The notes below the pieces were generated by a model. That model was not told the DNA's origin and searched no databases. It was given only the letters and a program-made list of their open reading frames with translations. This document shows, one piece after another, positions 1 to 62,354 of a stretch of 64,000 nucleotides of DNA. The stretch lies in contig CBFDEM010000033.1 of assembly GCA_965603825.1 (NCBI GenBank), positions 1 to 64,000 of the forward strand, in the 5' to 3' direction. Both the position numbers and the translations under genes were made by a program. This DNA is from Blepharisma stoltei ATCC 30299. Lineage: Eukaryota > Protista > Ciliophora. The number at the start of each line of letters is the position of its first letter. Position 1 is the first letter of the stretch.

Positions 1-1497
1 AACACCCTAACACCCTAACACCCTAACACCCTAACACCCTAACACCCTAACACCCTCCCTAACACCCTAACACCCTAACACCCTAACACCCTAACACCCT
101 AACACACCTAACACCCTAACACCCTAACACCCTAACACCCTAACACCCTAACACCCTAACACCCTAACACCCTAACACCCTAACACCCTAAACACCCTAA
201 CACCCTAACACCCTAACACCCTAACACCCTAACACCCTAACACCCTAACACCCTAACACCCTAACACCCTAACACCCTAACACCCTAACACCCTAACACC
301 CCTAACACCCTAACACCCTAACACCCTAACACCCTAACCTACACCCTAACACCCTAACACCCTAAACACCCCTAACACCCCTAACACCCTAACACCCTAA
401 CACCCTAACCCCTAACACCCTAACACCCTAACACCCTAACTCCCTAACACCCTAACCCCTAACACCCTAACACCCTAACACCCTAACACCCTAACACCCT
501 AACACCCTAACACCCTAACACCCTAACACCCTAACACCCTAACACCCTAACACCCTAACACCCTAACACCCTAACACCCTACACCCTAACACCCTAACAC
601 ACCCTAACACCCTAACACCCTAACACCCTAACACCCTAACACCCCTAACACCCTAACACCCTAACACCCCTAACACCCTAACACCCTAACACCCCTAACA
701 CCCTAACCACCCCTAACACCCTAACACCCTAACACCCTAACACCCTAACACCCTAACACCCTAACACCCTAACACCCCTAACACCCTAACACCCCTAACA
801 CCTCTAACACCCTAACACCCTAACACCCCTAACACCCTAACACCCCCTAACACCCTAACACCCTAACACCCTAACACCCTAACACCCTAACACCCTAACA
901 CCCTAACACCCTAACACCCTAACACCCTAACACCCTAACACCCTAACACCCTAACACCCCTAACACCCTAACACCCTAACACCCTAACACCCTAACACCC
1001 CTAACACCCTAACACCCTAACACCCTAACACCCTAACACCCTAACACCCTAACACCCTAACACCCTAACACCCCTAACACCCCTAACACCCTAACACCAC
1101 CCTAACACCCTAACACCCTAACACCCTAACACCCTAACACCCTAACACCCTAACACCCTAACACCCTAACACCCTAACACCCTAACACCCTAACACCCTA
1201 CACCCTAACACCCTAACACCCTAAACACCCTAACACCCTAACACCCTAACACCCTAACACCCTAACACCCTAACACCCTAACACCCTAACACCCTAACAC
1301 CCTAACACCCTAACACCCTAACACCCTAACACCCTAACACCCTAACACCCTAACACCCTAACACCCTAACACCCTAAACACCCCTAACACCCTAACACCC
1401 TAACACCCTAAACACCCTAACACCCTAACACCCCTAACACCCTAACACCCTAACACCCTAACACCCTAACACCTCCCCTAACACCCTAACACCCTAA
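1..1497 (+). repeat. Telomere, (CCCTAACA)n C-rich strand
   Basis: Tandem 8-nt CCCTAACA from base 1 with scattered 1-2 nt indel variants; this is the heterotrich (Blepharisma/Stentor) telomere unit. Confidence 0.98.
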
Positions 1498-7942: not shown

Positions 7943-10900
7943 TTAATGGATTTGATCTTTGATTTTTCTGAAGAGTGAATCTTTTTGCGACAGCTCCTCA
8001 GGGCTCCCTATTTCTGCAGCAATTCCATCTTGCATCACAATAATAAAGTCGCTTTCCATAACTGTTATGAGTCTGTGGGCGATAGTGAGAATAGTACAGC
8101 CGAAAAACTTTCCTTTTATTAAATTCTGGATTTCATGATCACTCTCCTGATCAACTCCAGCAGTTGCTTCGTCAAATAAAATAACTTTTGTATTGGCAAG
8201 CATGGCTCTCGCTATACTGATGAGCTGTTTTTCTCCAGCTGATAAATTTGACCCACTACCTTTGATATCGTGGTCAATTGAGAATTTTGAGAGATTTACT
8301 TCTTCCAACGCCTTTTTTATTTCATCATCTGATTTCAGTTGACACGGATCTAAATTCTTTCTTAGAGTGGAAGAAAAGACTAATGGATCTTGAGGTACTA
8401 GTGTAATTGCTGACCTCAGTTTGTCTAACCCTATATGTGATATGTCTACGCCGTCAATAAAAATTATTCCTTTATCGATTTCAACAATTCTCAAAAGGGC
8501 AAGAAAAACAGAAGACTTTCCGCTTCCAGTTCGCCCTACAAATCCTATTCGTTTTGATCCTTTGATTTTAAAGTTTACTCCTTTTAAAATATATGGTGTA
8601 TCAGGCCTGTATTTCATGAAAACATTTCTGAATTCAATTGATGGATTCTCTGGCCAACGAAATAAATTTTTGTCAGTCTGTAATTGGCTTGGCTTTTCTA
8701 CAGGAATGTTCATATACTGTTCGGCCCTTTCGACTGAGATCACTGAGTTCTCCAAGTATGCTAAATCAAAAATCAAATAGCTCATATCAATTGGTAAAGG
8801 AATAACATAAGCCAAACATAATCCAACAGTTGCGGCAGATAGATCATACCTTAGTAGAATAATTGTACAAAGCAAAAGGAATATAAATGCAGAAGTCAAA
8901 AGTCCAAGATATAAATTAATCCAGCAATAGCATGCTCCGAGTGAATAAAGTATCCTAGAGTTGCTGTTTAATAAATCATAATTTTTAGCATGAAAGACCT
9001 CAGTTTGTTTGAATGCCCGAATAAGCTTAGCCCCAGTAAGTGTTTCAGAAAAGTGATTAAGAATTGGAGACTTTGAGATTGCCTCCAGTCTTGTCAATTC
9101 CCTTGAAGCTCCCAAGTATGCATCTTTTATTTTTAGCGCAAAGTAAATGAATAAAGGCAAGGCAATAACCAGGTGTGGAAAATATATAAGAGCCATAAAA
9201 ATCGCTGCGCTAGCCTCTGACAGCATAACCAATGTGTAGCCAATAACAAGTGGAACAGTCGCATCGATTTTATCTATATCTTTGCTTAGCCTGTTCAAAA
9301 TTCTCCCTGTAGGTGTAACATCATAGAAAAGATTGATTGGTGCCCTTATAAAAGATTCAATCATTTTGTCGTGAATGTTTTGAGAAGCTCTGTTCCCGAG
9401 AAAATAATTGAGGAAAATTGCTCTTAAAGGTACAAATATGCTACCACCAACTCTTAAGCATAAATAAAGTACTAGTAGTGTGGAAGTGTCACTGGGATTG
9501 CTGCTTCATTCTTTTAGAACTATATCTCCAGATACTCGAGTAGTAGTCCAGAGAGCCACAGATAAGCAAGTTAAAGCAAGCATAGTGTATCCGCCTGAGA
9601 ATTTAAAATAGTCCTTATACACTTTACTGCTTACTTTTCCTGACTCTTTTTCCTCGTCTTCTATCAGCTTTTTAGGCTCATGGGGAATTTCTTGGGGTTC
9701 AGAATTATCCTTCTCAATAAGTGATTCTTGAATGCTCAAAGTAGCAGGCTCAGAAATTTGGCTTATTTTTCCATCTTCTAAAACAATGATACGATCCACT
9801 TTGTCTAAGATATTCAAGCGGTGGGTAACAAGAATTCGTGTTTTGTTAGAGAGTAGATTAAGAAAACAGTTATTCATAATGGAATTGGCTACAAAATTGT
9901 CAACAGAGCTTAAAGGATCATCAAGGAGATAAATTTCTTTATCAGCATATACAGCCCTTGCTAGGCAAACTCTAGCCTTTTGTCCCCCGCTTAAATTGAT
10001 ACCTTTTTCTCCTATTTCTGTAAAATCTTTATCAGGTAATGAACTTATATCTTGAGACAAGCAGCATGCATCTATGACTTTCATGTATCAGCTCTCATTA
10101 TATGGCTTTCCAAATAAAATATTATTCCTTAGGCTGTCGTTTTGGAGCCAAGATTCTAAAGAAGGAGCATACGCAATTTGATCATTTACACAAATCTCCC
10201 CAGATTCGACCTTGAGCTCTCCCATAATTGCATTGAGAAGTGATGACTTCCCGCTCCCAACTGGCCCAACAATAGCGATGAATTCATTTTTCTTTAAGTT
10301 TAGGTTAATACAATTTAATAGCGTTTTGCCTTCACACTCAAATGAACAATTTTTGATTTCGACAGTATCACCTTTAGGAAGTTGTCTCAATTCGCTGACA
10401 TCAAGGAACTTTTGCACTCTTTTTATGCTTACAAAGCATAAAATTAAGCTAGTCAGTATGTAAGGAACTTCTTGAAGAGAGTCCTGAAGAATGAGCAAAG
10501 TTGATAAAGTTACAAAGGTGACTTCTGGATTTAGTGACTTTTCCATAATTTGTGTGTAGTAGACGAATACAGAAGCGGCTGTTAAACTTGGGGTTGACCA
10601 GAATAAATATGATGCTCCAGAGTACGCTAAATTGTAAGATTTTAGAGAAGAAAGCTCTCTTTTCCTGATATCATGGATTAGATTTTTGAAGAAGTTTTCT
10701 CATACGTAAGCTTTGATGATTTTGATATTTCTGACGAGTTGAGAAGACATCTCGATCCTTTCATCTTTTATAGCCATCGTTTTACTTTGAAACTTCTTTA
10801 ATAGCGAAGAAGAAAAATAGCTCAAAGATAAGCACATCAACAATACTCCTAATCCAGCAAAAACTGCGGATCCAACTTGCAAGTAGATTAAATAAATAGA

Positions 10901-11533
10901 TAAGACAGCTTGAACCGGGCATGAGATGAATAGCCCAAGGTCGATGAACACAGAGTAAATCTTTTCTGCGTCTACTTCTAGAACGTTGACTCCAAGCCCT
11001 TCAGGGACTTTTGAAGCTTTTAAGACTTTTCCATAAATAGCATTTGCCAAGGAATTTTTTACTCTGATCTCAATAAGTTTGCTATTAAATTTCACTCTTC
11101 CTTTTAATATCTGATTTAGTATATGAATAGCTGAAAAGGCTAATAAAATATAGACCCCAGTCGTGAGAGGCTTTTCTTCAGACTCGATGTAAGAGATGAG
11201 CCATTTTATAAGTAAGGGAGCTGACAGATCTAACAATGCACATGCATTTCCTAGAAAAATAGATAAAAGTATAAGTTTTAGGTTGGAAAGTATAATGGCT
11301 CAAAAAAGCTTGTGTTTTTTCAGGTTCTGGGTGAGTTCTTCATTCTCTGCCTTTTCTTCATCTGGTAGAGGGTAAGTGTCATCAGAAGTAACATCTTTCT
11401 TTTTACTTAAATCAAGGATCGATTTTACTCATGTGAAGAAAGTCATTGAAAAAAATCCTGGCTTTTTTGTGGAGCGTGCTGGAAAATATGTGTAAGAGCT
11501 TTGATTTAAATTGTTGAGAGGTTGAAGTTCCAT
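7943..11533 (-). CDS. ABCC/MRP-type ABC transporter, copy 1 (1196 aa, TMD-NBD-TMD-NBD)
   Basis: Single frame with TGA=W. NBD1 GPVGSGKS/LSGGQ/LLDD; NBD2 GRTGSGKS/LSAGEKQ/DEAT; FYDVTPTGRILNR motif. Confidence 0.93.
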
Positions 11534-12114
11534 TTTAATTCTTTATATGGAGATAAAATTGCTTTAATACAGAAGTCTTTAAGATATTTGAAGCTTTGAA
11601 GGCACTAATTTTTAAAACTTTATCGTAGTAAAATATATATTTCCTTTTATGTTATTTTATTATTTCAACAGAGCTCTCTTTATTAAGTGCATTATAGCTT
11701 TTTTCTTTCCTATTTCATTTTTTTACAATTTCTTTAAATAATTTAAGAGGCAGTCAAAAAATCATTTATGCAAATAGCAATTATATTTTAGAAAAAAGAA
11801 TTAGAAGATTATAAAACTCTTCCCACAATTGAAGCAAAAAATATTATGCACCCAACCAAAACCATCAAAATAAATCTTAAGAATCGTTCCTATTAATAGA
11901 GAGGCGAGGTTAATTTTTTAAAAGTCCAGTTTAATGGATTTGATATTTGAAAAGTTAATAAGATTTATTATGAAGTCTAACTAATTAACCATTAATGCAT
12001 ATGTTTTCAAAATGCATAAATATTCGGAACAATTCTCATATCACAAATCTGAAAAAATTTGATTTCTAATAAAATTTATCTTCATTAATATTATCAATTT
12101 TAATCGTAAAATAA

Positions 12115-15100
12115 TTAATGAATCTGATCTTTGATTTTTCTGAAGAGTGAATCTTTTTGCAGCAACTCCTCAGGGTTCCCTATTTCTGCAGCAATTCCAT
12201 CTTGCATCACAATAATAAAGTCGTTTTCCATAACTGTTATGAGTCTGTGGGCGATAGTGAGAATAGTGCAGCCGAAAATCTTTCCTTTTATTAAATTCTG
12301 GATTTCATGATCACTCTCTTGATCAACTCCAGCAGTTGCTTCGTCAAATAAAATAACTTTTGTATTGGCAAGCATGGCTCTCGCTATACTGATGAGCTGT
12401 TTTTCTCCAGCTGATAAATTTGACCCACTACCTTTGATATCGTGGTCAATTGAGAATTTTGAGAGATTTACTTCTTCCAACGCCTTTTTTATTTCATCAT
12501 CTGATTTCAGTTGACACGGATCTAAATTCTTTCTTAGAGTGGAAGAAAAGACTAATGGATCTTGAGGTACTAGTGTAATTGCTGACCTCAGTTTGTCTAA
12601 CCCTATATGTGATATGTCTACGCCGTCAATAAAAATTATTCCTTTATCGATTTCAACAATTCTTAAAAGGGCAAGAAATACAGAAGACTTTCCACTTCCA
12701 GTCCGCCCTACAAATCCTATTCGTTTTGATCCTTCGATTTTAAAGTTTACTCCTTTTAAAATATATGGTGTATCAGGTCTATATTTCATGAAAACGTTTC
12801 TGAATTCAATTGATGGATTCTCTGGCCACCGAACTAAATTTTTATCTGTCGGCAACTGACTTGGCTTTTCCGCAGGAATGTTCATATACTGTTCAGCTCT
12901 TTCAACTGAGATTACTGAATTTTCCAAATATGCTCAATCAAAAATCAAATAATGCATGTCTATTGGCAAGGGAACAACATAAGCTAGACATAATCCAACA
13001 GTTGCAGCAGATAGATCGTTTCTTAGCATAATAATTGCAAAAAGCAAAATAAATATAAAGGCAGAACTCAGAAGTCCAAGATATAAGTTAATTCAGCACT
13101 CACATGCTCCTAGTCAATATAAGATTTTTGAATTTTTATTCAATAAATTATAGTTTTTAGCGTGAAAATTTTCGGTTTGTTTAAAGGCTCGAATGAGTTT
13201 AGCGCCGGATAATGTTTCAGAAAAGTGATTGAGAATTGGAGACTTTGAGATTGCCTCCAGTCTTGTCAATTCCCTTGAAGCTCCTAAGTACGCATCTTTT
13301 ATCTTTAGCGCAAAGTAAATGAATAAAGGCAATGCGAAAACTAGATATGGAATATATATGAGAGCCATTAAAATTACAGCACCGGTCTCTCCCAGCAGGA
13401 CTATTATGTAACCAATAGCATTAGGCACACTCCCATCAATCTCATCCATGTCCTTGCTTAGTCTATTTAAAATTCTCCCTATTGGTGTCACGTCATAGAA
13501 TAAATTGACTGGTGCCCTTGAGAAAGATTCTATCATTTTGTCATGAATAGCTTGAGAAGCTCGGATTCCAAGGATATAATTGAGTAAAATCGCTCTTAAA
13601 GGTATTAAAATGTCTCCTCCAATCCTTAAGCATAAATATAAAACTAGAAGTGTGAATGCATCACTAGGATTGCTGCTTCATTCTTTCAGGACTATGTCTC
13701 CAGACATTCGAGTTGCAGTTCAGAGAACTATGGATATACAAGCTAAAACTAGTATAGTGTATCCGCCTGAGAATTTAAAGTAGTCCTTATATACTTTACT
13801 GCTTACTTTTCCTGACTCTTTTTCTTCATCTTCTATCAGCTTTTTAGGTTCATGGGGAATTTCTTGGGGTTTAGAATTATCCTTCTCGATAAGTGATTCT
13901 TGAATACTCAAAGAAGCAGGCTCAGAAATTTGGCTTATTTTTCCATCTTCTAAAACAATAATACGATCCACTTTGTCTAAGATATTCAAGCGGTGAGTAA
14001 CAAGAATTCGTGTCTTGTTAGAGAGGAGATTAAGAAAACAGTTATTCATTATTGAGCTGGCTACAAAATTGTCAACAGAGCTTAGCGGATCATCAAGGAG
14101 ATAGATTTCTTTATCAGCATACACAGCTCTTGCTAAGCATACTCGAGCTTTTTGTCCCCCGCTTAAATTGATACCTTTTTCTCCTATTTCTGTTAAATCT
14201 TTATCAGGTAACGAATTTATATCTTGTGCTAGCGAGCAAGCGTCTATGACTTTTGAGTACCAGCTCTCATTATATGGCTTTCCAAATAAAATATTATTCC
14301 TCAAACTGTCGTTTTGGAGCCAAGATTCCAAAGAAGGCGCATACGCAATTTGGTCACTTACACGAATCTCCCCAGATTTGACCTTGAGCTCTCCCATAAT
14401 TGCATTGAGAAGTGATGACTTCCCGCTCCCAACTGGCCCAACAATAGCGATGAATTCATTTTTCTTTAAGTTTAGGCTAATGTCATTTAATAGCGTTTTG
14501 CCTTCACACTCAAATGAACAATTTTTGATTTCGACAGTATCGCCTTTAGGAAGTTCACTCAAGTCACTGACATCAAGGAACTTTTGCACTCTTTTTATGC
14601 TTACAAAGCATAAAATTAAGCTAGTTAGTATATAAGGAAATACTTGAAGAGAGTCCTGAAGAATGATCAAAGTCGTTAAAGTTACAAAGGTGACTCCTGG
14701 ATTTAGTGACTCTCCCATAATTTGTGTGTAGTAGATAAATACAGATGCTGCTGTTATGCTTGGAGTTGACCAGAATAAATATGATGAGGCTGAATAAGCT
14801 AAATGATACGATTTTAGAGAAGAAAGTTCTCTTTTCCTGATATCATGGATTAGATTTTTGAAGAAGTTTTCTCATACATAGGCTTTGATAATTTTGATAT
14901 TTCCTAAGAATTGAGAAGATACTTCTATCCTTTCATCTTTTATTGTCATCAATTTAGTTTGGTATTTCTCAAGCAATGAAGAGGAAAAATAGCTTAGCAC
15001 CAGACACATTAGCATGACTCCTAATCCAGCAAAAATCGCAGATCCAACTTGCAGGTAGATTAAATAAATCGATAAAACAGCTTGAACTGGGCATGAGATG

Positions 15101-15705
15101 AAGAGCCCAAGGTCGATGAATACAGAGTAAATCTTTTCTGCGTCCACCTCAAGAATGTTTACTCCAAGGCCTTCAGGGGGTTTTGAAGCTTTTAATACTT
15201 TCATATAAATAGCATTTGACAAAGAATTTTTTACTCTGATCTCAATGAGCATGTCATTAAATTTCACTTTTCCTTTTAGTATCTGATTTAGTATATTAAC
15301 AATTGAAAAGCTAGATAAAATATAGATCCCTGTCATAAGAGGCTTCTCATCAGACTCAATATAAGAAATGAGTCAATCAATAAACAACGGAGCTGATAGA
15401 TCTAGCAATGCACATACATTTCCTAGAAAAACAGATAAAAGTATCAGTTTTATATTGGAACGTATAATGGCTCAAAAAAGCTTGTGCTTTTTCAAGTTCT
15501 TGGTAAGTTCTTCGTTCTCTGCTTTTTCTCCATCTGGGAGAGGGTAAGTATCGTCTACGGTAACATCTTTCTTTTTACTTAAATCAAGGATCGATTTTAC
15601 TCATGTGAAGAAAGTCTTTGAAAAAAATCCTGGCTTTTTTGTGGAAAGCGCTGGAAAATATGTGTAAGAGCTTTGGCTTAAATTATTAAGAGGCTGAAGC
15701 TCCAT
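12115..15705 (-). CDS. ABCC/MRP-type ABC transporter, copy 2 (1196 aa), tandem paralog
   Basis: Same length and motifs as copy 1 at an offset of 4172 nt; TGA/TGG interchange at aligned Trp (ESW-Y, CW-IN). Confidence 0.93.
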
Positions 15706-16172
15706 TTTACTAATGTCATCTGACAATTATTTTGCTCCAATATGTATATTTACACAATTCATAATTTTTTAAGTTTCTTTTAAACAAAATCTTTTGTAAA
15801 ACATCCAATTTTATAGTATTTTAATATTTTAAAGCACTTTATTTATCAATCTCATAATAGCTTTATTCTCCCAATTAACTTTTTTTTAAAAATATTTTGG
15901 GATAATGCATGAAAATGAGTAATAAAACTGATATAAATAAGCAGCTATAGTATTTAATATATAGGATGGCATTTACTAAAAGTTTAATATTCCTCAGTGC
16001 TATTTTTGCTTTAATATTAAAATTTCATGTTGAATTTATATTTCGACAGATAGTAATTGCATTTGAATTATTATAAGGCGATAAATTATGAATATTAGAA
16101 ATAAAAAAAATATTTTAACTATATTATCACTTAGATGGGTAGCCTGCACATTTATAATATTTATATTCAAAA

Positions 16173-26816: not shown

Positions 26817-27564
26817 TACATTGCACTCTTTTATTATTTGCACTTTATGCACTATCTTTTTGGCATGTGAAGATCCAAACTTCACAGACCTTCAAATGCC
26901 AAAAAAAATTATTCATAGAGTGTCGATCTGAAAATAGTGAAATGCATTATAGAAGATATCGAGATCAGCGATTTATGCTAATTTAGCAATTTTGATTGTA
27001 CACAAACTATGTGAGTATATGGGTTAAAATTATGCGTTTATTTTAAATTCATTTTTATTGATAATTTAAATTTGAGCTTGTGATTATTGGCTGTAACAGT
27101 ATTTAATCATTTCTATAAAGGAGATGAAAAATAAGATAGTTGTAATTGATCTTAAAAATGAGCTGAAAGCCTGCTGAAGACTATATTCGCTAAAAATATT
27201 AAAAATAAAACTCAAAAAAGTAAACTATTAGATTTGAAATAGATCCCTAACTATATGCTTTGTGACCCTGAAAGTAATCAATAAAAACCAAAATTTATTA
27301 AAAATTTTCCTATCTGACAGAAGTATATTCCTGATGTCTCTATGCTGTAACTCATTGTGTGATTTAAAATTATCTCTGGATAATTCCTAAATATAGATTT
27401 AGGGTCTCTTTAGAAATATTATTAAAAGGTAGATTTTTAAAAATATTTATAAATATTGTAAGGAAGCTTATGAAAATAAGAATTTTAAATGCACAGATTA
27501 TAAATTGAGATAATAGCATCTAATCAAGCTATTTTGACTTGTCTTATGCATGTGCTTTTATATT

Positions 27565-28896
27565 ATGGAAACTTTCCCTATAAAGATTTTTGAATCTTTT
27601 TTACAAGATTTTCAAATTGAAGATCTCAGGAATTTTTGCAAAAGCCTTAATCTGTTTGGTTCTGGAAGTCGATTCGAGGTTATTGCTCGATTATATAATT
27701 ATTACAGCACTAAATCAAAATCCCAAGATCCCTCTGAACTAATTCACCAACTCTGCAAAAGCCAGAATTGCCAAGTGCCTCGGCTAAACTGCATTTGCAA
27801 CCAAAAATTCTCCCGCCTTCAGCTTATCCAGTGTTCTCTTTGCCGTAGCTTTCAGCACAAGCAATGCATCAAAAATCCTAACATAATCCCATATGAATGC
27901 TTCATTTGTCAGCTTCACCAAATGAATCCCTTAGAAGAGATCAAAGAATTCCTAGTTCCCCCTTTTTTATGCGAGAATGGGATGCAGAGATCGCCTCATT
28001 TTACAAAAAATTTTGACTACTCCGAAGAATTTCGTAAAAAAATCCAGCTTGGGAATGGAAATTTCCAAATCCAAGTAAGATGCATCAAGCTAGAAGGAGA
28101 CCCTTATACTCAGCAATGACCTTTAGCGGGCTGTCTCATAATTAATGATAAATTAGCAATGCTATTTCAACCCCCAAATATAAATGCAAAAAAGCGAAAA
28201 GACCAGCCTTTAAATATAACCACAATTCTGAGATCAGACTCACCAAACAATATTTGCCTCTTGCAGGATGAAAAAATTGGCAAGTTTATATGTGGAGTCG
28301 CTTTGATACAAGAGAAAAGCAACGAAAGTCTAATTGAAGAAATTAAAAGCCAGCCAGGAGTATCTGTGGATGAAGGCAAGGTATTTATTAATACAATTTT
28401 AGCTCAAGGAGACTCTGATGTAGTCTCCGACAGCATCAAATTTTCTATAAAATGTCCAATCACCATGACTTTAGTTGAAATCCCAGTGAGAGGAATAAGA
28501 TGCACTCACATCCCCTGCTTCAATTTAGGACCTTATATTAATCTGCAGAGATACTCCAAAGTCAATAGATGAAAATGCCCAATTTGTAAGAAGCCAGTAA
28601 ATAAAATGACAATAGATAGATTTGTCGAGCAAATGATAATTGCAGCAAGGACGATAGAAAATGCGAGCCAGATTGAGCTATTCTCGAATGGGACGTTTAG
28701 GATCATTTTGGATGAAATTAATAACTCAGATTCAGAGCAAAGTGACGAAGAAATCAAGAAAAGGCGAAAACTGAAAGAGGAAGAAGAAAAAGTCCCTGAT
28801 GAAAGTATCAAAATGGATAAAGAAATCCCATTAAGCAGCAGGCCAAATAAGAAAGACGGCAAGGCATCACCTGAAATCATAGAGATTTCTGACTAA
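27565..28896 (+). CDS. SIZ1: SIZ/PIAS-type SUMO E3 ligase (SAP, PHD, PINIT-like, SP-RING, C-terminal SIM)
   Basis: LRNFCKSLNLFGSGSRFEVIARL (SAP); CIC...QC..C...QH..C PHD; CPIT...IPVRG..CTHIPCF...(TGA=W)KCPIC SP-RING; EIIEISD. Alternative ATG at 27550. Confidence 0.9.
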
Positions 28897-33417: not shown

Positions 33418-34338
33418 TTAGTTTTTTGTATTAGAAATCTTACTTTCATCGCAGCTTTCCAGCCACTTGTGCTGGTAGATTTCATCTATAGTAGGCCGAT
33501 TAATTGGATTTTTGGTCAGCATTTTCCTGACGCAGTCTTTGGCGTCTTCACTTACAGAAGCCCAGCAGCCTTCAGTCATGTTAATTTGATTATTTTTTAT
33601 TCGATTATAAATTTCTTGCTCGTTGCTCAGCACGAATGGAGGGCTCCCTGAGAGCATGGCATAGAGCGTAATTCCGAGGCTTCATACGTCACATTTTTCG
33701 TCATATTTCCCTTTGATTAGCTCAGGTGCCATATACGCAGGAGTTCCTACACATTTCTGCATGACTTCGCCTTTTGTGAAGTGCACAGCGTTGCCAAAGT
33801 CGATCACTTTTATTATAGGGTCCTTTGTTATTAGGATATTTTCTGGTTTTAGGTCTCTGTGGACTATTCCTTTTGAATGGCAATATTTAACTGCTGAGAC
33901 GATTTGCTTCATGTAGACGACAGCGTCGTTTTCTTGAATTCCATTATTTGCGTTGATTTTGTCGATTAAGTCTCCACCTCGGCAATATTCGGTCACAATA
34001 CTAAGACTTTTTGAATCTATGTAAACATCAAAAACTTCTATGATATTAGGGTGCGATAATAATCTCAAGATCTTCACTTCTTCAAGAATGCGGTCTATTT
34101 GTGATTCCGTCACTGTGCTAAGATTTATAGTTTTCACTGCCATTTGCTCATCTGTTGTTTTATGCCTTCCTAAGCGGACTTCTCCATATCCTCCAGTCCC
34201 TAATCTTTTGATGATTACATAGTCTTCAATTACTTTACCTTTAATCATATCGCTAAAGTCTTTTCCTGTGACACTGAATCTTTTGGTTTGGCTGCGAACT
34301 ACCTTATCTTTAGATTTTTTTGAATGGCAAGCACCCAT
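33418..34338 (-). CDS. CAMK/CDPK-related Ser/Thr kinase without EF-hands, MGAC N-terminus (306 aa)
   Basis: GTGGYG, HRDLKPEN, DFG, APE, DV(TGA=W)SLG. Confidence 0.92.
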
Positions 34339-35592
34339 AAATTAAATTAGAATTAGGTTTAAGCTATTTAAGCCCAAAAAAGGAAAAAGAAGAATGCGTT
34401 GAAAAGCCTTAAATTAATTTGCTAAAATTTGATACAAAAAAATAAAATAATATTAATTGAGTAAGAATGATATAAATCTTCAAACTGTAGATAAAATGAT
34501 CTATATAAAAGGGAAGATTATAGAATATTTCTTTGATTTTTATGGAAATAAATTTGCAACGTTTATAATAAAAAGCTATTATTTATTTAATTGAGTGTTG
34601 AGTAATAAGTTACGTTTTAAGTGTTTAATAGAGAATAGGAAAACTAATTAATACGCATTAAAGTTTTCATTATGATAAAGATATTTCTAATGAAATAAAT
34701 AAGGATTATCATTAAGAGTTAGCGTTTTGCATATTTTTGAGGGCGTTGTAGGTGCTAGATATGATTTTCTTGCAACGATCTTGGTAGATTCCTAAATAGC
34801 TCATATATTTTAAAAAGCAAATTAGGATTTCGTAATAATTTTAAAATTTGGAATTTAATTACCAATTCTTTTTAGAAATTTCAAAAATTAATAAATAAAA
34901 AAGAAAGCCATAACCCTGAATTTATAATTTAATGCAAAAAATCTCAAGAATAGATGAATGCTTCTTTAGTTACTATAATAATTTAGGAATAAGTAAATAA
35001 GAGAAGATTGCCTGTTTAATCAATCTGTATTTAAATTTGCTTTCAAAAATTATATGCTTGAGTTGAAATCATAATTTAAATAAGCTGCTCACCCTAATTA
35101 GTTGTGCTAACACCATAAATAATCATCAATTTTGTCTGGTTTCACCAGCTTCAATGCACTCAATTTGGTATAGTAAAACATAATTGTTACACATTTCAAC
35201 ACTGTATTGAATGTTGATCTACCTAATAATAAATTACTCATCGTGGCATAAATTTCGAATTTATTTTAGTGATAAATTGTTTGCAACTGCTGCAAAACTA
35301 CTTTTTGGCTCAATGCTGGCAATAATGCATTCATATTTCAGGCTATTTCAGCAACTTATAAATCCGAAATAATTAGATGGCTGCAATCACTATAAAATTA
35401 GTGTTTTTATTAGCAATTTAAAGATCTTCGTCGTTTTTGGAACATTAGACAGAAAGCTTGGCTATTATTGCTTTCGGGCTTTGGGACAAACTCCTTGAAA
35501 GTCTTCTTATTTTGATCTCTGACGCACTTACCATCTACCATCTTATGTTGATATCTTTTCCAAAATCCAGAAAGCTTATAATATTTATTTGC

Positions 35593-37184
35593 ATGAGTCA
35601 AAATTTACCAAGCAGGCGCTCCCAGGAGTTCTCTTCTCAAGATTCTAATAGTACTTTGACAGCAAAATGACTACTAGTTTCGTTTTTTAATTGCGATTTG
35701 CCTCGAGACATTATTAATGAGGCAATGAGAAATGTTTCTCCAAAACCATCCAAATGGATGGTGGCTAGAGAAATGAATTTACCAGAAAGCTGAACCATAT
35801 GCGTACTGGTTGAATATGAACGTGAAATGACCATTGATTCTCATATCTTTAATTTTTTTGGGGAGTAGGGGTGTGCAAAAAAATTTTTACTTACAATGGT
35901 TACATAAATAGACTCAATTGACTTAAAGCTGTGGACTCTGGAGCAATTTATCATGAGAGGTCTTCAAGCCTTAATAGTGAAAGGTACTATGAAAATCCAC
36001 AGGATATTATTGATCTCACTGAAGAAGAAGAAGAAGAAGAAGAAAATCATAAGACTCCAAGAAGATGCAGAAGTAGAAGCAGATCACCTAAACCAGCTAA
36101 AAAGCTTTCTCCTAGCATTTTGGGTCACCAATATAGAATGAGAAGTGATTCACCGCCTTCAAGTCCATCTCCTCCAAGAACTACAATAAATGAAATACCT
36201 ATAAGCATCAGAACTTCTTCAAATAGAAAATCCCAAGCCTCTCCTATCTCGTTGCCTCATGAAACTTCTGCAAATAGAAACAGCCAAGCCTCTTCTATTT
36301 CATTTTCCCATGGAACTTCTCCAATTTTAAACAGCCAAGCCTCTGCTATTTTAGTGCCCCACGGAACTTTTCCAAATAGAATCATCGAAGCTCCTTCTAC
36401 TTCAACTTCTCCTGCGAATAGCCCAACTCAACGTCATTACCCAGAAACTTATATAGGACCCCTTCCCGCAACTTACATAGGTCCCTTCCCTCCGAGGCCT
36501 GAACCTGTTGCTCATCATAGCTCTCCTCAAGAATTGCAGCAGGGTAATAATCAGTCAGATTCATTCCGTTTAGCAAATCAATCACCTCCAACTCTAGAGC
36601 CAAATGCAAATAGCCCAGCAAAAAAGCAAGCTGAATCAAAAAGGCCTTGTGCCAAAAAAGTATCTTTTGCAGAAGAAATGCTGAGTAGCTCACCAAATAA
36701 TGATCCTATTGGAAGCCAAAGAAATATTGGAAATTCCAACAGCCAAGACTCATCAAATCCTTCAAATGAGGCTCCAAGACCTGCTATGAAAGCACCCAAA
36801 AATTATATAAGGCCTCCTAATGAAGAAAATAGGCAAATTAGGCAGTTGGAAACTACTGAAAACCAGTCTTCCGGCCAACCAGAGCAAATAGCCAGAGACT
36901 TGGCAAATACAACAATTAGTTCTTCTTCAATTAATAATCAAGACCGTATTTCTATAAATCTGAACAATGAAAGCCAGATAAAAGTTGTTGAGGTGGAGAT
37001 CAAGGATAAAAGCCATCAAAGCTTGGGCAGCATTGAGTTCAAGTTAAATTTAAGACCATCTGAAGCCGAAATTCCTAATGGCAGGGAAAATTTCTGGGGT
37101 TGCCCAATCTGCGGAAACATCAATTCATCTAAAATCGAATTTTGCCCAATGTGCATAGCCCACAGATATTGGGCTAATAGCTAA
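35593..37184 (+). CDS. Frameshifted gene (~530 aa): Rep-like N-terminal domain, SIM-acidic motif, Ser/Pro-rich linker, RanBP2-type zinc finger
   Basis: ATG 35593 frame is open to TAG 35866; the -1 frame is open from 35853 to TAA 37184 with no suitable ATG of its own; IIDLTEEEE; WGCPICGNIN...CPMC. Confidence 0.65.
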
Positions 37185-37518
37185 TTCAATTAAGTAATTC
37201 TTAACAATTAAAAACGTATCTTAAATTCAGTATTCATATGTAAATCCTTTATTGTCATATTCTAATTTAAGCTGCATAAAATATTTATTTAAATGAAACA
37301 AAATAATTATTTATATAAAAAAACATAATCTTTTGCCCAATATCTTAACAGAAACTGATTTTCCTCACAGCAATTTCTTTTCTCCATAATAATTTGTATA
37401 AGCTGTAAAAATGAATATCTCCAGCTTTTGATTGAAATTATTCGGCACCTCCAAAAATAGCTAAATCCAGTCTAAGTGTATTTAGATTAAGAGTTGATTG
37501 AAAACTAAAGTTAAAGAA

Positions 37519-37884
37519 TTAAATTGCTCAAGAAGACATAAAGGACGGAAGGACAGGAATCAAAAAGTTATTGAAGCGAGGAGGATCGAGCACCGCGTAA
37601 GCCCCAACTGACAGCTTCGGTCTTTTGTTTGGCTGGAGGTCTTGTGTAGTGACTATCAGCAGAGGTGCTTTCAGGAGAGGCTGTCGAGTGTTGTGTAATT
37701 GAAGAGCCCTCGAAACACTTTCTGGGTGATCAAACTTGATCATGCAGTACTTTCGACCGAGAAAGCGAATACTTTCTATGCGCCCGCACCTTGAAAATAG
37801 CTCAGAGACTGCGTCCGCCTTCACAGTTGACCCGATGCCACTAACGAAGATGCGCTTGATTTCATCACGATCACGCTTTGCCAT
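37519..37884 (-). CDS. Single-RRM protein
   Basis: RIFVSGI (RNP2) and KYCMIKF (RNP1); ends TGA-GCA-ATT-TAA. Confidence 0.82.
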
Positions 37885-40778: not shown

Positions 40779-42116
40779 ATGTGGGTTCACCTTCTTTTAA
40801 TAGGAACAGCCCTGAGTGCACCTTTAGCTGATTTAGTAAAAAATCGTCCAGGGCTCCCAGCAGACTCTCCACCTAATTTCGATACATATTCTGGTTATCT
40901 TAACATTCCTAACTCAAATGGAAAATCATTACATTACATCCTCGTTGAAAGTCAAAATAACCCAGCGACTGATCCTTTGCTACTATGGCTTAATGGAGGC
41001 CCAGGCTGTTCTTCACTAGACGGCTTTATCTATGAGCATGGCCCTTATGTATTTCCAGACGAAGGCACTACTCTTTTTAAAAATCAATGGTCTTGGAATA
41101 CCAATGCTAGTGTCATCTACCTTGAAGCACCAGCTGGGGTGGGCTGGTCCGTTATGGGAGACCTTTCTAACAATAGCACAGACGATGAAATCACTGCCCA
41201 CGACAGCCTTCAAGCAATTTTACAATTTTTCAGGAAATTCCCTGAATACAGATACCACGATTTTTACATCTCAGGAGAAAGCTATGCAGGCATTTATGTC
41301 CCTACGCTAGCATACAATGTCCTTATGTATAACAACTATAGTCCTCACAATAGCATTAACCTAAAAGGCATTGCTGTTGGAAATGGAATTACAGATTGGA
41401 ATGTGGACTCTACCCCAGCCTTTATGAAACTAGCCTGGACCCATGCTCTTATTGGCTATGAATGGTATGAAAAATTAGTCGCTGATTGTGACAATCTCAA
41501 TGACTGGAGCAGTGAAGCCTGCAATAATGACGTTTATTATATAGAAGCCACTCTTCTAAACAATATTAATATTTATGATGTATATGGCCCTTGCATTTAT
41601 CATAACTCGACACAAGCACAGCTGGACAATAATAGATACCTGAAATTTGTATTAGATCAAAATCCAAATTTGGGAATAATCCCTCCATGCTGTGCATGGC
41701 AAGGCGCTTATGAGTATCTCCAAAGCCAAGCTGTAAGGACTGCTTTTAATATACCGAATAGTGTACAGCAGTGGACTTTTTGTGTGAATTTGGACTATCA
41801 GGATGACTATCTTCATGGCTCAGTCTATATATATCCTTACTTGATACGTGCAGGGCTACGAATTTTGGTCTACTCAGGAGATGTCGATGGGTCAGTACCA
41901 TTTATAGGGACAAGGGAATGGATTAACAGCTTAAATTTAGATGTGAAACAAAGTTATGCTTCTTGGTATGTTGATGAACAAGTCGCTGGATATTATATAG
42001 AATATGAAGGGCTGACTTGGGTAACTGTAAAAGGAGCAGGACATATGGTGCCACAGTGGAAAAGACCTCAAGCTTGGCATATGATTAATTCTTTCTTAAG
42101 TGGAGTTTCACCATAA
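40779..42116 (+). CDS. Secreted serine carboxypeptidase (S10), copy 1
   Basis: WLNGGPGCSS, GESYAG, YSGDVD, GAGHMVP; signal peptide. Confidence 0.96.
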   Translation: MWVHLLLIGTALSAPLADLVKNRPGLPADSPPNFDTYSGYLNIPNSNGKSLHYILVESQNNPATDPLLLWLNGGPGCSSLDGFIYEHGPYVFPDEGTTLFKNQWSWNTNASVIYLEAPAGVGWSVMGDLSNNSTDDEITAHDSLQAILQFFRKFPEYRYHDFYISGESYAGIYVPTLAYNVLMYNNYSPHNSINLKGIAVGNGITDWNVDSTPAFMKLAWTHALIGYEWYEKLVADCDNLNDWSSEACNNDVYYIEATLLNNINIYDVYGPCIYHNSTQAQLDNNRYLKFVLDQNPNLGIIPPCCAWQGAYEYLQSQAVRTAFNIPNSVQQWTFCVNLDYQDDYLHGSVYIYPYLIRAGLRILVYSGDVDGSVPFIGTREWINSLNLDVKQSYASWYVDEQVAGYYIEYEGLTWVTVKGAGHMVPQWKRPQAWHMINSFLSGVSP

Positions 42117-42251: not shown

Positions 42252-43586
42252 ATGTGGGTTCTTCTTATTTTAGTAGAAACAGTTTTAGGTGCACCTTTAG
42301 CTGACTTAGTCAAAAATCGGCCAGGACTTCCACCAGACTCTCCTCCCAATTTCGATACATATTCTGGATACCTTGATATTCCCAATTCTAACGGAAAATC
42401 ATTACACTATGTTCTTGTTGAAAGCCAAAATAACCCAGCAACAGATCCTTTGCTACTATGACTTAATGGAGGTCCAGGCTGCTCTTCATTAGATGGCTTT
42501 GCCTATGAGCATGGCCCTTATGTATTTCCTGATGAGGGCACAACTCTTTTTAAGAATCAGTGGTCTTGGAATACCAATGCCAGCGTCTTATACCTTGAAT
42601 CCCCAGCTGGTGTTGGCTTCTCAATTTTGGGAGACCCTTCAAATAATAGCACCGATGATGAAATTGCTGCTCATGATAATCTTCTTGCCATTGTCCAATT
42701 TTTCAGAAAGTTTCCTGAGTATAGAAACCATGAGTTTTATATTTCAGGGGAAAGCTATGCAGGAATGTATTTACCTTACTTAGCCTATAACATTCTAATG
42801 TATAACAACTATAGTCCTCACAATATTAACCTCAAAGGAATGATAATTGGAGGTCCAGCTACTGATTTTACATATGATTTCACCCCAGCTTTGATGAAAT
42901 TACTCTGAACTCATGCTCTAATTGATTATAACTGGTATTATAAACTAGTAAATGACTGTGATAATTTCAATGAATGGGATGGCGAAGCTTGTGGAAATGA
43001 CACAAATTATATACAAACTGAGCTCCTAAGTAACTTGAATTATTATAATATTTATGGGCCTTGCATATATCAAAATGATACTAGAGCACAAAAGGATAAC
43101 AATATTTTCCTCAGAGCTGCATTAGATTCAATGGCTTCTCCAGGAATTATTCCACCATGTGCAGCTTGGGAAGGCGCTTATGACTATTTCTTAAATGATA
43201 CAGTAAGAAAAGCATTCAATATCCCAGCGAATGTCCAGCCTTGGACTTTTTGTATTTTCCTTGACTATATTTCAGATTATCAGCATGGGTCAGTCTTTTT
43301 GTATCCTTTTCTTATTCGTTCTAGCTTGCGCATATGGATTTATTCAGGAGATGCTGATGGGTCTACACCTTTTATTGGTACCAGAGAGTGGATAACTGGC
43401 TTAAATCTAAATGTGAAGCAGCCGTATACTTCATGATATGTAGATGATCAAGTGGCTGGGTTTTATACTGAGTATGAAGGACTTACCTGGGTGCTGGTGA
43501 AGGGTGGTGGGCATATGGTTCCACAGTGGAAGCGTCCACAAGCATGGCACATAATCAATTCGTTTTTAAGTGGTGTTTCACTTTAA
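42252..43586 (+). CDS. Secreted serine carboxypeptidase (S10), copy 2 (444 aa)
   Basis: Colinear with copy 1; TGAs at 42459, 42906 and 43434 align with TGG in copy 1. Confidence 0.94.
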
Positions 43587-58462: not shown

Positions 58463-59029
58463 TTAAATTAAAAAAATTTCTTCTTCATCAGTATAGTCTT
58501 CAGATAAAACGATTTCCCATGACCCTTTATTCTCATCTAAATGCTTTTTGGGGTTTCCTTGAGAGTTTATTCTTCCATATGCCCAAATGAAATTCATTTT
58601 TGCATTTTTCGCTAGCATTTTGTCATATTTATCCCCAGTATTTAGTGGCTTGCTCCAAGAAAACATTTTATATTTATCAACTGCGTTTACAGATTTTTCA
58701 GCTAAACTATCAAGGCCTCCTAATTTTATATCAGATTCTGGCTTAGAGTTCATAAAGGACCAGTAGTCGTCTATACGGCCGTCATGTAGGTTTATCATAA
58801 CAATATCAGCGTTTCTCATGTCACCTCCATCCATTATATCTTTAAAGCCAATGCCGACCCAGTCATAGTCGTCTTCCATTAAAGACATAGGGCAATGGTA
58901 CTCGAATTTAACAGAGTTTTCATCTGGAAAACTCCAATATAACATTTGATTGCGTGGTAGGTGAATAGTGCCTTTACCGTAAGCTAGGATTGTCAGAGAT
59001 AGCAAGAGCAAAGTGATTTGTTTAGCCAT
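58463..59029 (-). CDS. Secreted single DOMON-domain protein, copy 1
   Basis: WVGIGF...M..ADI...D.W...P..D; IWAYG...H; signal peptide. Confidence 0.88.
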   Translation of the reverse strand: MAKQITLLLLSLTILAYGKGTIHLPRNQMLYWSFPDENSVKFEYHCPMSLMEDDYDWVGIGFKDIMDGGDMRNADIVMINLHDGRIDDYWSFMNSKPESDIKLGGLDSLAEKSVNAVDKYKMFSWSKPLNTGDKYDKMLAKNAKMNFIWAYGRINSQGNPKKHLDENKGSWEIVLSEDYTDEEEIFLI

Positions 59030-59506
59030 TTTAATTTGAATATTAACGGAATTTTTTATATAAATAAGTGCAGTTAACGGAATAGTTGTAACATACTAAA
59101 TTTGTTCTTTTAAAAAATTTGGAAATACTTGAATATTAATTTATAAAAAATTTGATCGAGGCTAAATAGATAAAAAAATTAATAAATAGAATTCATCATT
59201 TGGATAAGCTGAAAAATGGAAAGATTTATATGCAATTCAAAAACTTGTTTTCAATATAATTAAAATAAAGATGGAGAATATAAGTTTACTATATATGCAA
59301 TACTTTTACTGCAAAAGATTAATTGTTTATAAAATGTTCTTAAAATTATCAGATAGAAAAACAATATTTTATTATAAAACTGCTTAAAGTAATTTAGCCA
59401 TTAAAACATAAAGATATTTATAAAAGCTATAGTGTCTGTAAAGCATAGCAGTTTTTTTAATACCATGTTATGCTTCTTTTTAATAATTTAATAATCGCCT
59501 TTAATA

Positions 59507-61324: not shown

Positions 61325-61790
61325 ATATGTATAAATCTATATGAAATCTATTAAATGCATTTTACTTGCAAAAATGATTATAATTGATTAATTTAATTAG
61401 AGTTTACAGCTAAATAAATAGAGAGTAAATAGCAATGCTATTAAGGACCGGTAGAAGTGGAATCATTTACCAATTAAATACAGTAATGAACCTATATCTA
61501 AAAAAGGACAGACTTCAATAGTAAAGAAATAATGCAGCTTTATTGAAATAGTTTAATTAACAGCAGCTCTTACAGTAGAATTATTAATTTATAAACAAAT
61601 AAAGCTATATTACGTTTTTATTGTAGCATTATCTTATTTTTCAAATAAATAGCATTAAAGCTTCTTCATCTTATGGTTTTCTTTACAAAATTTCCTCAAA
61701 TATTTTTTTTAATTTTTAAACTCTAAAACTTTCCATCATTAAACTCTGCTAATTTCAAACCAAAAAATTCCGTTAAGTTTTAAATTAAAT

Positions 61791-62354
61791 ATGGTTAAAC
61801 AAATCATCCTGTTAATAGCTGCTCTAGTTCTCATCACTTATGGAAAAGGAGTCACCCATCTGCCACAAGACCAGCATCTCTACTGAAGCTTCCCTGATGA
61901 AATGTCCGTTAAATTCGAGCTATATGTGCCACTTTCTTTTACCGAAGAATATGAATGGACTGGCTTTGGCTTGAAAGAAGTATCCAAGATAAGCAGCATG
62001 AAAGATGCAGACATAACTATGATATATCTTAATGATGATAGAATAGAAGACTGCTGGAGCAGTATGAATGCTAGGCCTGACCCAGATATTGAGGTAGAAG
62101 GCTTTGATAGTTTAACAGAAAAATCAGTTAATGTTGTCGATGACTATAAGGTTTATACATGGATTAAAATGATGAATACAGGCGATGAAAAAGATATGGT
62201 TCTATCACAAGGTGCTCAAGCTGGCATTATATGGGCATATGGGGCTGTTAATTCTGAAGGAAAACCTAAAAAGCATAAAGGAACAGATAGAGGATATCAT
62301 GAAATTACACTTTCAGAAGACTTTAATGATGGAGAAATCGTTTCCTTAATCTAA
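61791..62354 (+). CDS. Secreted single DOMON-domain protein, copy 2
   Basis: Colinear with copy 1; TGA at 61884 aligns with W in LYWSFPDE. Confidence 0.88.

What the first reader, a model, noticed from the sequence alone, without database searches (positions are those of the whole stretch)
35593..37184. Hidden gene with a catalytically dead CRESS/geminivirus-like HUH Rep domain fused to a SIM and a RanBP2-type zinc finger
Seen: with TGA=W, ATG 35593 gives ...TLTAKWLLVSFFNCDLPRDIINEAMRNVSPKPSKWMVAREMNLPESWTICVLVEYEREMTIDSHIFNFF. The -1 frame then gives GVGVCKKIFTYNGYINRLNWLKAVDSG, running into the 417-aa ORF that has no proper start. By eye this tracks the geminivirus Rep N-terminal pattern (AKNYFLTYPNCSL...P..KK.I.V..E.H..G.PHLHVLIQFE......FFD...Y..KDG), keeping AK, NCxL, P, K, V..E, VL..E and F with near-identical spacing. 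The catalytic motifs are replaced (HLH to TIC, YxxK to WLKA). Downstream lie IIDLTEEEE (SIM plus acidic tract), 17-aa degenerate repeats (~36222-36390) and W.CPICG..N...C..C. Inference: a virus- or rolling-circle-element-derived nucleic-acid-binding fold recruited as a SUMO-reading host factor, possibly in nuclear development.
Basis: partly seen in the sequence, partly recalled or inferred. Interest (0 to 1): 0.85.

Follow-up and report, generated by a model that had tools for sequence, protein, structure and literature searches.

The report
Ciliate gene with dead viral Rep
A ciliate gene begins with what is likely a disarmed DNA-cutting domain of small circular DNA viruses, joined to a predicted SUMO-binding motif and a zinc finger, but in this strain one missing base splits it in two, while a close relative has the extra base that keeps the two halves in one frame.

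Summary
A 91-aa ORF (35593-35868, TGA=W) and a 443-codon ORF in the -1 frame meet at a T7G4 run. One contig in each of 4 of 4 probable RNA runs (one study) spans both ORFs with no gap, so the break is neither an assembly error nor an intron. A syntenic contig about 94% identical (run X12) has one more G there, which puts both ORFs in one frame. The window therefore most likely holds a strain-specific frameshift allele of a gene of about 525 aa. Residues 19-84 resemble geminivirus/genomovirus Rep: 16.2 bits on a custom profile, 0 of 3000 shuffles, best of 754 window ORFs. Single-sequence models rank geminivirus Rep first among 48,161 chains, but weakly (Z 5.3 and 6.0; RRMs 4.8-4.9). HLH is replaced by TIC. 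Motif III could not be located, so the claim 'YxxK to WLKA' is unsupported. Pfam, Foldseek and two of five profiles gave no significant Rep hit. No homologue was found elsewhere, and pN/pS is about 0.9, so domestication is unproven. Likely role of the intact protein: a non-cutting nucleic-acid binder that reads SUMO (inferred).

The parts
35593..35868 (+). ORF-A, 91 aa with TGA=W; 5' part of the gene; deposited as its own 107-aa protein from ATG 35545
   Evidence: the 30 nt before ATG 35593 have GC 0.23 (17 window genes: 0.10-0.37), against 0.43 for ATG 35545 and 0.40 for ATG 36138
35647..35844 (+). Rep-like segment, residues 19-84, predicted strand-helix-strand-strand
   Evidence: profile match; models; VIA-align
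35674..35694 (+). Motif I-like stretch L-V-S-F-F-N-C (I-V-T-F-R-N-C in run X12)
   Evidence: block test 0 of 300 shuffles; C34 shared by 93% of natural Rep rows; X12 differences
35767..35772 (+). R59-E60, the Arg-Glu pair before motif II; Glu is the candidate third metal ligand (R59 is Ile in X12)
   Evidence: 97% and 99% of natural rows; role of the Glu from PMC10288648 passages
35794..35802 (+). T68-I69-C70 in the columns of H-L-H (HUH lost)
   Evidence: alignment to natural Reps; block test 1 of 300
35853..35863 (+). T7G4 run, site of the frame break; run X12 has one more G. The T7 is also an in-frame U_UUU_UUU heptamer
35863..35892 (+). Weak hairpin 3 nt after the heptamer; not above background
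   Evidence: -6.6 kcal/mol, z -1.2; 40% of 569 coding positions as stable
35853..37184 (+). ORF-B, open -1 frame of 443 codons; first ATG at 36138 (deposited 348-aa protein)
36006..36044 (+). SIM-like IIDLT followed by 8 Glu (the GAA run is inferred to be 12 nt shorter in X12)
   Evidence: SIM consensus recalled; the pattern occurs 4 times in 11,569 aa of other window proteins
36211..36381 (+). 51-nt (17-aa) degenerate tandem repeats in a Ser/Pro-rich linker
37095..37154 (+). RanBP2-type zinc finger pattern
   Evidence: full pattern match; PF00641 E 0.022, 14.5 bits, below the cut-off of 27; Atlas feature score 0.78, a lead only
35601..37214 (+). Extent of the probable transcript (strand assumed from the ORFs)
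   Evidence: 4 of 4 RNA? runs, one study; cover stops near the gene ends where DNA runs go on

Best explanation
This is one ciliate gene of about 525-530 codons, split in this strain by a one-base difference in a G run, whose first domain is likely a nuclease-dead relic of a geminivirus/genomovirus-type Rep and whose intact product would likely act as a non-cutting nucleic-acid binder that docks on SUMO-modified nuclear proteins. Shown: two overlapping coding frames, the same break in DNA and probable RNA contigs, an extra G in a syntenic relative, loss of HUH in the aligned columns, no Walker A motif in the gene. Inferred: Rep ancestry (about 0.75); the continuous frame is ancestral and the window allele is a null or near-null that makes mainly a 91-aa fragment lacking the last strand and helix (about 0.8). 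Inferred, weakly (about 0.35): the intact protein uses the Rep sheet to hold ssDNA or origin-like DNA, as the dead HUH origin-binding domains of papovaviruses do, while IIDLT plus the acidic run binds SUMO and the zinc finger binds a further partner. Fast, nearly neutral change and loss in one strain suit a young, dispensable gene or one in conflict with mobile DNA.
For: Frame: 0 gaps in DNA contigs X3 (flagged as possible source) and X5, and in 4 of 4 RNA? contigs. X12 contig 35412-37233 has 103 other letters and +G behind 35859; its other listed gaps lie upstream (35447) or in the last codons (37176, giving a stop two codons earlier); the remaining 12 gap letters fit an in-frame loss in the skipped GAA run. 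No GT-AG 14- or 17-nt intron candidate at the junction. Codon usage supports both frames. Rep: gemini+genomo profile 16.2 bits, P 5e-7, 0 of 3000 shuffles, best of 754 six-frame ORFs (E 0.0014, next 0.86) and of 1656 tiles. Three RRM pieces from the window score 0.6 bits or less, and 30 of 99 true circo-type Reps score 16.2 or less on the same profile. Best pairwise score 68 against 116 natural Reps, 0 of 500 shuffles. VIA-align: 1l2m Z 5.3 (rmsd 3.0, 73 aligned); 1l2m Z 6.0 (rmsd 2.6, 72 aligned) and 7kik Z 5.2 as the top two. Named BFVD hits are mostly Reps. Precedent for dead HUH as a DNA binder: PMC6668415 and PMC13595969 passages.
Against: No Pfam or PHROGs family for ORF-A at E up to 10. 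Foldseek on PDB lists mostly RRMs, best E 0.28; BFVD best E 0.12-0.15. Models are weak (pLDDT 57 and 65) and overlap in sequence, so they are not independent. Of five profiles, circo-type (-1.9 bits) and all-three (-1.0) gave nothing, and the genomo-only and gemini-only profiles were matched or beaten by 2 and 1 unrelated window ORFs. GRS, sDBM and motif III blocks are not above chance (51, 78 and 255 of 300). pN/pS is 0.51 in ORF-A (4 S, 8 N) and 1.22 in 35862-36209 (4.5 S, 18.5 N), pooled about 0.87: no purifying selection shown. Only 40 of 98 X12 substitutions were listed, so a stop past 36209 is not excluded. Expression of the intact form was not seen. No binding data.
Confidence: 0.55

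Rival explanations
1. The first domain is a divergent host RRM or other ferredoxin-like fold, and the gene is an ordinary fast-evolving RRM plus RanBP2-finger RNA-binding protein with a frameshift allele.
For: Foldseek PDB hits are mostly RRMs, led by RBM5 RRM1-zinc finger (E 0.28); RRMs reach Z 4.8-4.9; RRM plus RanBP2 finger is a common host architecture (recalled); no Pfam Rep hit.
Against: No RRM_1 hit either, while the neighbouring RRM gene hits at 1.4e-7. Sequence blocks match Rep motifs I and II. Window RRMs do not score on the Rep profile. In the better model 1l2m stands 1.1 Z above the best RRM.
Confidence: 0.2
2. The window allele is functional through -1 ribosomal frameshifting at U_UUU_UUU, programmed or as a low-level rescue; a -1 slip would give a full-length product differing from the relative's by one residue at the junction.
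For: The heptamer is in frame at the break. It occurs 0 times in 34.7 kb of other coding DNA against 2.8 expected (P 0.052). A hairpin starts 3 nt downstream, and X12's one change in it keeps a G-U pair. No substitution in 35793-35888. ORF-B stays open and the RNA? contigs are full length. Compensatory frameshifting of indels has precedent (PMC5009743 passages).
Against: X12 shows no change in the T7 yet is in frame, so the heptamer needs no frameshift role. The hairpin is ordinary (z -1.2; 40% of positions as stable). Other substitution-free runs of 152, 79 and 64 nt exist. [quoted passage not shown]
Confidence: 0.1
3. The locus is a decaying, transcribed pseudogene: a Rep fragment that landed in front of a host low-complexity zinc-finger ORF and never gained a function in either lineage.
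For: pN/pS about 0.87; listed coding differences (35 in 35593-36209) are denser than upstream ones (5 in 35412-35592); no relatives found; X12 lost the conserved R59.
Against: Both frames keep coding-type codon usage; no stop arises from the 35 listed coding changes; zinc-finger cysteines and the SIM-like motif are complete; probable transcripts in 4 of 4 runs.
Confidence: 0.12
4. Two separate genes, as deposited (107 aa and 348 aa).
For: Both are in NCBI/UniRef/nr.
Against: Single RNA? contigs span both; frame 3 is coding-like for 92 codons before ATG 36138; both deposited ATGs have GC-rich upstream context; X12 joins the frames.
Confidence: 0.03

Closest known systems
Rep endonuclease domain of geminiviruses and genomoviruses (Repensiviricetes; PDB 1l2m, 7kik)
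   Same: Motif I region, the Arg-Glu pair and the motif II strand align with near-identical spacing; predicted strand-helix-strand-strand fold
   Different: HUH is T-I-C; motif III not detectable; no helicase motif; fused to SIM-like motif, low-complexity linker and zinc finger; sits among ordinary host genes
Origin-binding domains of papilloma- and polyomaviruses (inactivated HUH; PMC6668415, PMC13595969)
   Same: HUH fold kept, catalytic motifs lost; model for a switch from cutting to binding
   Different: Those are viral and keep an active SF3 helicase; binding here is untested
Endogenous CRESS Rep elements in protists, fungi and plants (PMC3198968, PMC7493932)
   Same: Rep-related sequence in a eukaryotic genome, some conserved and expressed
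   Different: Those are recognisable Rep or whole-virus insertions; this is a lone, very diverged nuclease domain in a new domain architecture; PMC3198968 holds 0 mentions of ciliate, Tetrahymena or Paramecium
Replitron transposases (PMC10288648)
   Same: Eukaryotic CRESS-like Rep domain without helicase, with unalignable flanks
   Different: Replitrons keep HUQ and GYxxK and are multicopy mobile elements; 0 mentions of ciliates in the paper
SIM-bearing nuclear adaptors such as RNF4/Slx5 and PIAS (recalled)
   Same: V/I-V/I-D-L-T core with an acidic tract in a disordered region
   Different: One SIM-like motif, no RING; a RanBP2-type finger instead

Membership tests
CRESS/geminivirus-type Rep HUH endonuclease | Motif I (UUTU) | tested here: met
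   L-V-S-F here, I-V-T-F in X12; block 0 of 300 shuffles; definition
CRESS/geminivirus-type Rep HUH endonuclease | Motif II HUH or HUQ | tested here: not met
   T-I-C in the HLH columns; no X12 change listed at these codons
CRESS/geminivirus-type Rep HUH endonuclease | Motif III YxxK | tested here: not met
   No placement above chance in residues 92-125, 255 of 300 shuffles; the Lys of WLKA is Gln in X12
CRESS/geminivirus-type Rep HUH endonuclease | Glu before motif II (third metal ligand) | tested here: met
   E60, 99% of natural rows
CRESS/geminivirus-type Rep HUH endonuclease | GRS and sDBM | tested here: inconclusive
   Best offsets fall at the expected place, around the break, but 51 and 78 of 300 shuffles score as well
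CRESS/geminivirus-type Rep HUH endonuclease | HUH fold | tested here: inconclusive
   Top VIA rows at Z 5.3 and 6.0, under 8; only the part before the break was folded
CRESS/geminivirus-type Rep HUH endonuclease | C-terminal SF3 helicase | tested here: not met
   No Walker A pattern in any frame of the locus; no helicase family for ORF-B
Endogenous CRESS virus or Replitron | Origin nonanucleotide in a hairpin, terminal repeats, several copies | tested here: inconclusive
   No TAATATTAC or TAGTATTAC near the gene; no long flanking repeats; the genome was not available for copy number
RRM | RRM_1 profile and fold | tested here: inconclusive
   No Pfam hit; RRMs at Z 4.8-4.9 and Foldseek E 0.28 or worse
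RanBP2-type zinc finger | W-x-C-x2,4-C-x3-N-x6-C-x2-C (pattern recalled) | tested here: met
   Exact match 37095-37154; Pfam score 14.5 is under the cut-off of 27
SUMO-interacting motif | Binds SUMO | not testable with these tools
   Pattern only; it occurs 4 times in 11,569 aa of other window proteins
Programmed -1 frameshift gene | Slippery heptamer in frame at the overlap | tested here: met
   U_UUU_UUU at 35853-35859
Programmed -1 frameshift gene | Frame break conserved in relatives | tested here: not met
   The one relative seen is in frame
Programmed -1 frameshift gene | Stable stimulatory structure downstream | tested here: not met
   z -1.2 or worse in 4 downstream windows; 40% of coding positions as stable
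Domesticated viral gene | Purifying selection and orthologues across species | tested here: inconclusive
   pN/pS about 0.87 on 35 changes against one relative; no orthologue found

The most novel reading that the evidence does not exclude
A heterotrich ciliate captured the nuclease domain of a geminivirus/genomovirus-type Rep, disarmed it, and wired it to SUMO- and zinc-finger modules as a fast-evolving sensor of rolling-circle or excised circular DNA. This would be a first sign that Repensiviricetes-like viruses infect ciliates, with a natural null allele segregating between strains that -1 slippage on U7 may partly rescue.
Probability: 0.2. Interest if true: 0.8.

Novelty: new variant of a known kind. 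Interest (0 to 1): 0.5.

Why it matters
If the ancestry holds, a cellular protein reuses a viral HUH domain as a non-cutting module in an architecture (Rep, SIM, RanBP2 finger, no helicase) that my ten literature searches did not show, and it would point to ciliates as hosts of geminivirus-like elements. The natural pair of alleles, one broken and one in frame, gives a ready comparison for function and for -1 slippage in a TGA=Trp ciliate. It also corrects an annotation: two deposited proteins are likely halves of one gene. The value is limited by the moderate homology evidence, the lack of orthologues and the lack of purifying selection.

Tried and rejected
Assembly error: rejected, 0 gaps in X3, X5 and four RNA? 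contigs. Tiny intron: no fitting GT-AG candidate and no joint in RNA? contigs; contigs drop rare variants, so rare splicing is not excluded. Euplotes-like double +1 shift at two TAGs: dropped; frame 2 has negative codon scores. No whole genome was held, so paralogues were not searched. Homologue searches: none among 23 longer candidates; only the gene's own products (the other 4 of 5 rows are repeat-rich proteins matching 24-40 residues); none in viral contigs or plasmids; one chance 8-residue match in a LysR-like bacterial gene (L251; family label recalled). PDB sequence search gave two spike proteins at E 0.7. Rfam gave 0 matches. Atlas search of the C-terminal part gave leads under 0.9 only; the N-terminal domain has no Atlas result. 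The whole domain across the break was not folded, so strand 4 and the last helix are untested. No listed run is on record as RNA; X13 laid nothing. The TAATATTT before the ATG is chance (17 in the window). Literature searches showed, by title and abstract start, no report of this gene or of a Rep-derived gene in a ciliate; supplements were not read and may list it.

Full report
Setting. The window starts with about 1.5 kb of CCCTAACA-type telomere repeats, and its long ORFs read through TGA as Trp. Passages of PMC9942806 and bioRxiv 2021.12.14.471607 give this telomere unit, UGA=Trp, 15-16 bp introns and short UTRs for Blepharisma. I infer a Blepharisma macronuclear contig. The gene lies between a protein kinase gene (33418-34341, minus) and an RRM gene (37519-37884, minus). 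No whole genome was available.

The observation. ORF-A runs from ATG 35593 to TAG 35868 (91 aa). ORF-B is open in the -1 frame from 35853 to 37184, with its first ATG at 36138. The databases hold them as two proteins of 107 and 348 aa. A codon model trained on 17 window genes favours frame 1 for ORF-A and frame 3 for the 92 codons before ATG 36138. The 30 nt before ATG 35593 are AT-rich like other starts; those before the two deposited ATGs are richer in GC than all 17 training genes.

The break is real, and it is an allele. Of 13 runs listed, I laid 8. DNA contigs of X3 (a possible source) and X5 match the junction with no gap. Each of the four RNA? runs (one study; RNA is the tool's guess) gives one contig from about 35601-35683 to 37172-37214, with no gap or substitution, and no cover in the flanks where DNA runs go on. 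No 14- or 17-nt GT-AG intron fits the junction. Run X12 holds a syntenic contig (35412-37233, 103 other letters, 16 gap letters) with one G added behind 35859, which puts ORF-A and ORF-B in one frame. Its other listed gaps are +1 upstream and -2 in the last codons, giving a stop two codons earlier. The length balance leaves -12, which fits four fewer Glu in the skipped GAA run. The intact product would be about 524 aa. Only 40 of 98 substitutions were shown, so a stop after 36209 is not excluded. No X12-type contig appeared in X3 or X5, and no window-type contig in X12, so these look like alleles or orthologues rather than paralogues. X13 laid nothing.

Is it Rep? Standard searches are blank: Pfam and PHROGs, 1.84 billion representatives, PDB sequences. 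I therefore extracted natural Rep N-terminal domains from viral contigs: 96 genomovirus-type, 116 begomovirus-type and 99 circovirus-type. ORF-A scored 7.8, 9.1 and -1.9 bits on these, 16.2 on the first two combined (P 5e-7), and -1.0 on all three. On the combined profile none of 3000 shuffles reached the score of the read-through domain (14.9), ORF-A was best of 754 window ORFs (E 0.0014, next 0.86), window RRMs scored 0.6 or less, and 30 of 99 true circo-type Reps scored no higher. On the single-family profiles, one or two unrelated window ORFs did as well. The match covers residues 19-84 only. A24, K25, C34, L36, R59 and E60 are shared with 64-99% of natural rows, and the HLH columns hold T-I-C. 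Block tests support motif I (0 of 300) and motif II (1 of 300), but not GRS (51), sDBM (78) or motif III (255). Single-sequence models of ORF-A (pLDDT 57 and 65) give strand-helix-strand-strand. Among 48,161 chains VIA-align ranks geminivirus Rep 1l2m first both times (Z 5.3, then 6.0 with wheat dwarf virus Rep 7kik second at 5.2), with RRMs at 4.8-4.9. Foldseek on PDB lists mostly RRMs at E 0.28 or worse. BFVD lists mostly Reps among named rows, at E 0.12 or worse and up to 26% identity. By the definitions in PMC10288648 (passages) the protein is not a member of the Rep endonucleases: motifs II and III and the helicase are missing.

Selection. On the 35 listed coding differences, pN/pS is 0.51 in ORF-A and 1.22 in 35862-36209; pooled by hand, about 0.87. 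Seven changes cluster in motif I (35674-35688). None of the 35 creates a stop in the gene's frame. This neither shows constraint nor separates decay from fast adaptive change. No orthologue was found.

Frameshifting as a rival. The T7 is an in-frame U_UUU_UUU, absent from 34.7 kb of other coding DNA (2.8 expected, P 0.052). But the downstream hairpin is ordinary, and X12 shows no change in the T7 while being in frame. [quoted passage not shown] Leaky rescue is possible; a programmed site is unlikely (about 0.1).

How it likely works. In this strain the main product would be a 91-aa fragment ending before the strand that, in Reps, forms the ssDNA-bridging motif (bioRxiv 2020.09.01.278671 passages), so the allele is likely null or near-null. 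In the relative, the protein would have a non-cutting Rep-like domain, a SIM-like motif with an acidic run, basic patches, a Ser/Pro-rich linker and a zinc finger. Dead HUH domains serve as origin binders in papovaviruses (PMC6668415, PMC13595969 passages), and geminivirus Reps engage the SUMO E2 enzyme (PMC10548238 passages). From this I infer a nucleic-acid-binding adaptor to SUMO-modified nuclear proteins. No step of this function was tested, and nothing here ties it to nuclear development.

Novelty. Endogenous Rep sequences are known in protists, fungi and plants (PMC3198968, PMC7493932 passages), and helicase-less Reps occur in Replitrons. PMC7468197 passages raise ciliates only as possible crucivirus hosts. 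PMC13685798 passages gave background on Blepharisma genomes. Ten searches, judged from listings, showed no Rep-derived ciliate gene; supplements were not read. An unchecked note from this scan describes nuclease-dead Rep-helicase genes in Perkinsus, a parallel that I did not test. Verdict: a new variant of a known kind, interest 0.5.

Noticed in passing
window 27550-28893 (+): PIAS/Siz-type SUMO E3 ligase (zf-MIZ, weak PINIT and SAP hits) 6.7 kb upstream of the finding, ending in a SIM-like IIEISD; the proximity is probably chance.
   Followed up: partly
window 1-1497: About 1.5 kb of CCCTAACA-type telomere repeats with scattered indels.
   Followed up: partly
window 35350-35411: Run X12's loose end before 35412 resembles window 35320-35349, implying an indel of about 62 nt upstream of the gene.
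   Followed up: partly
window 35674-35688 and 35790-35792: Clusters of 7 changes in 15 nt and 3 adjacent changes between the window and X12, in otherwise well-conserved stretches; one turns a TGA (Trp) codon into CAA.
   Followed up: partly
window 7943-11542 and 12115-15726 (-): Tandem pair of near-identical ORFs of about 1200 aa, each with two Walker A motifs; ABC-transporter-like by recall.
   Followed up: no
window 40779-42116 and 42252-43586 (+): Tandem pair of secreted serine-carboxypeptidase-like genes (label recalled); one uses TGG and the other TGA at several Trp positions.
   Followed up: no
window 58463-59095 (-) and 61743-62354 (+): Two similar small secreted-looking ORFs in opposite orientation.
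   Followed up: no
window 34342-35592: An intergenic stretch of 1.25 kb, long for this gene-dense window; no Rfam match and no Rep-like remnant.
   Followed up: partly
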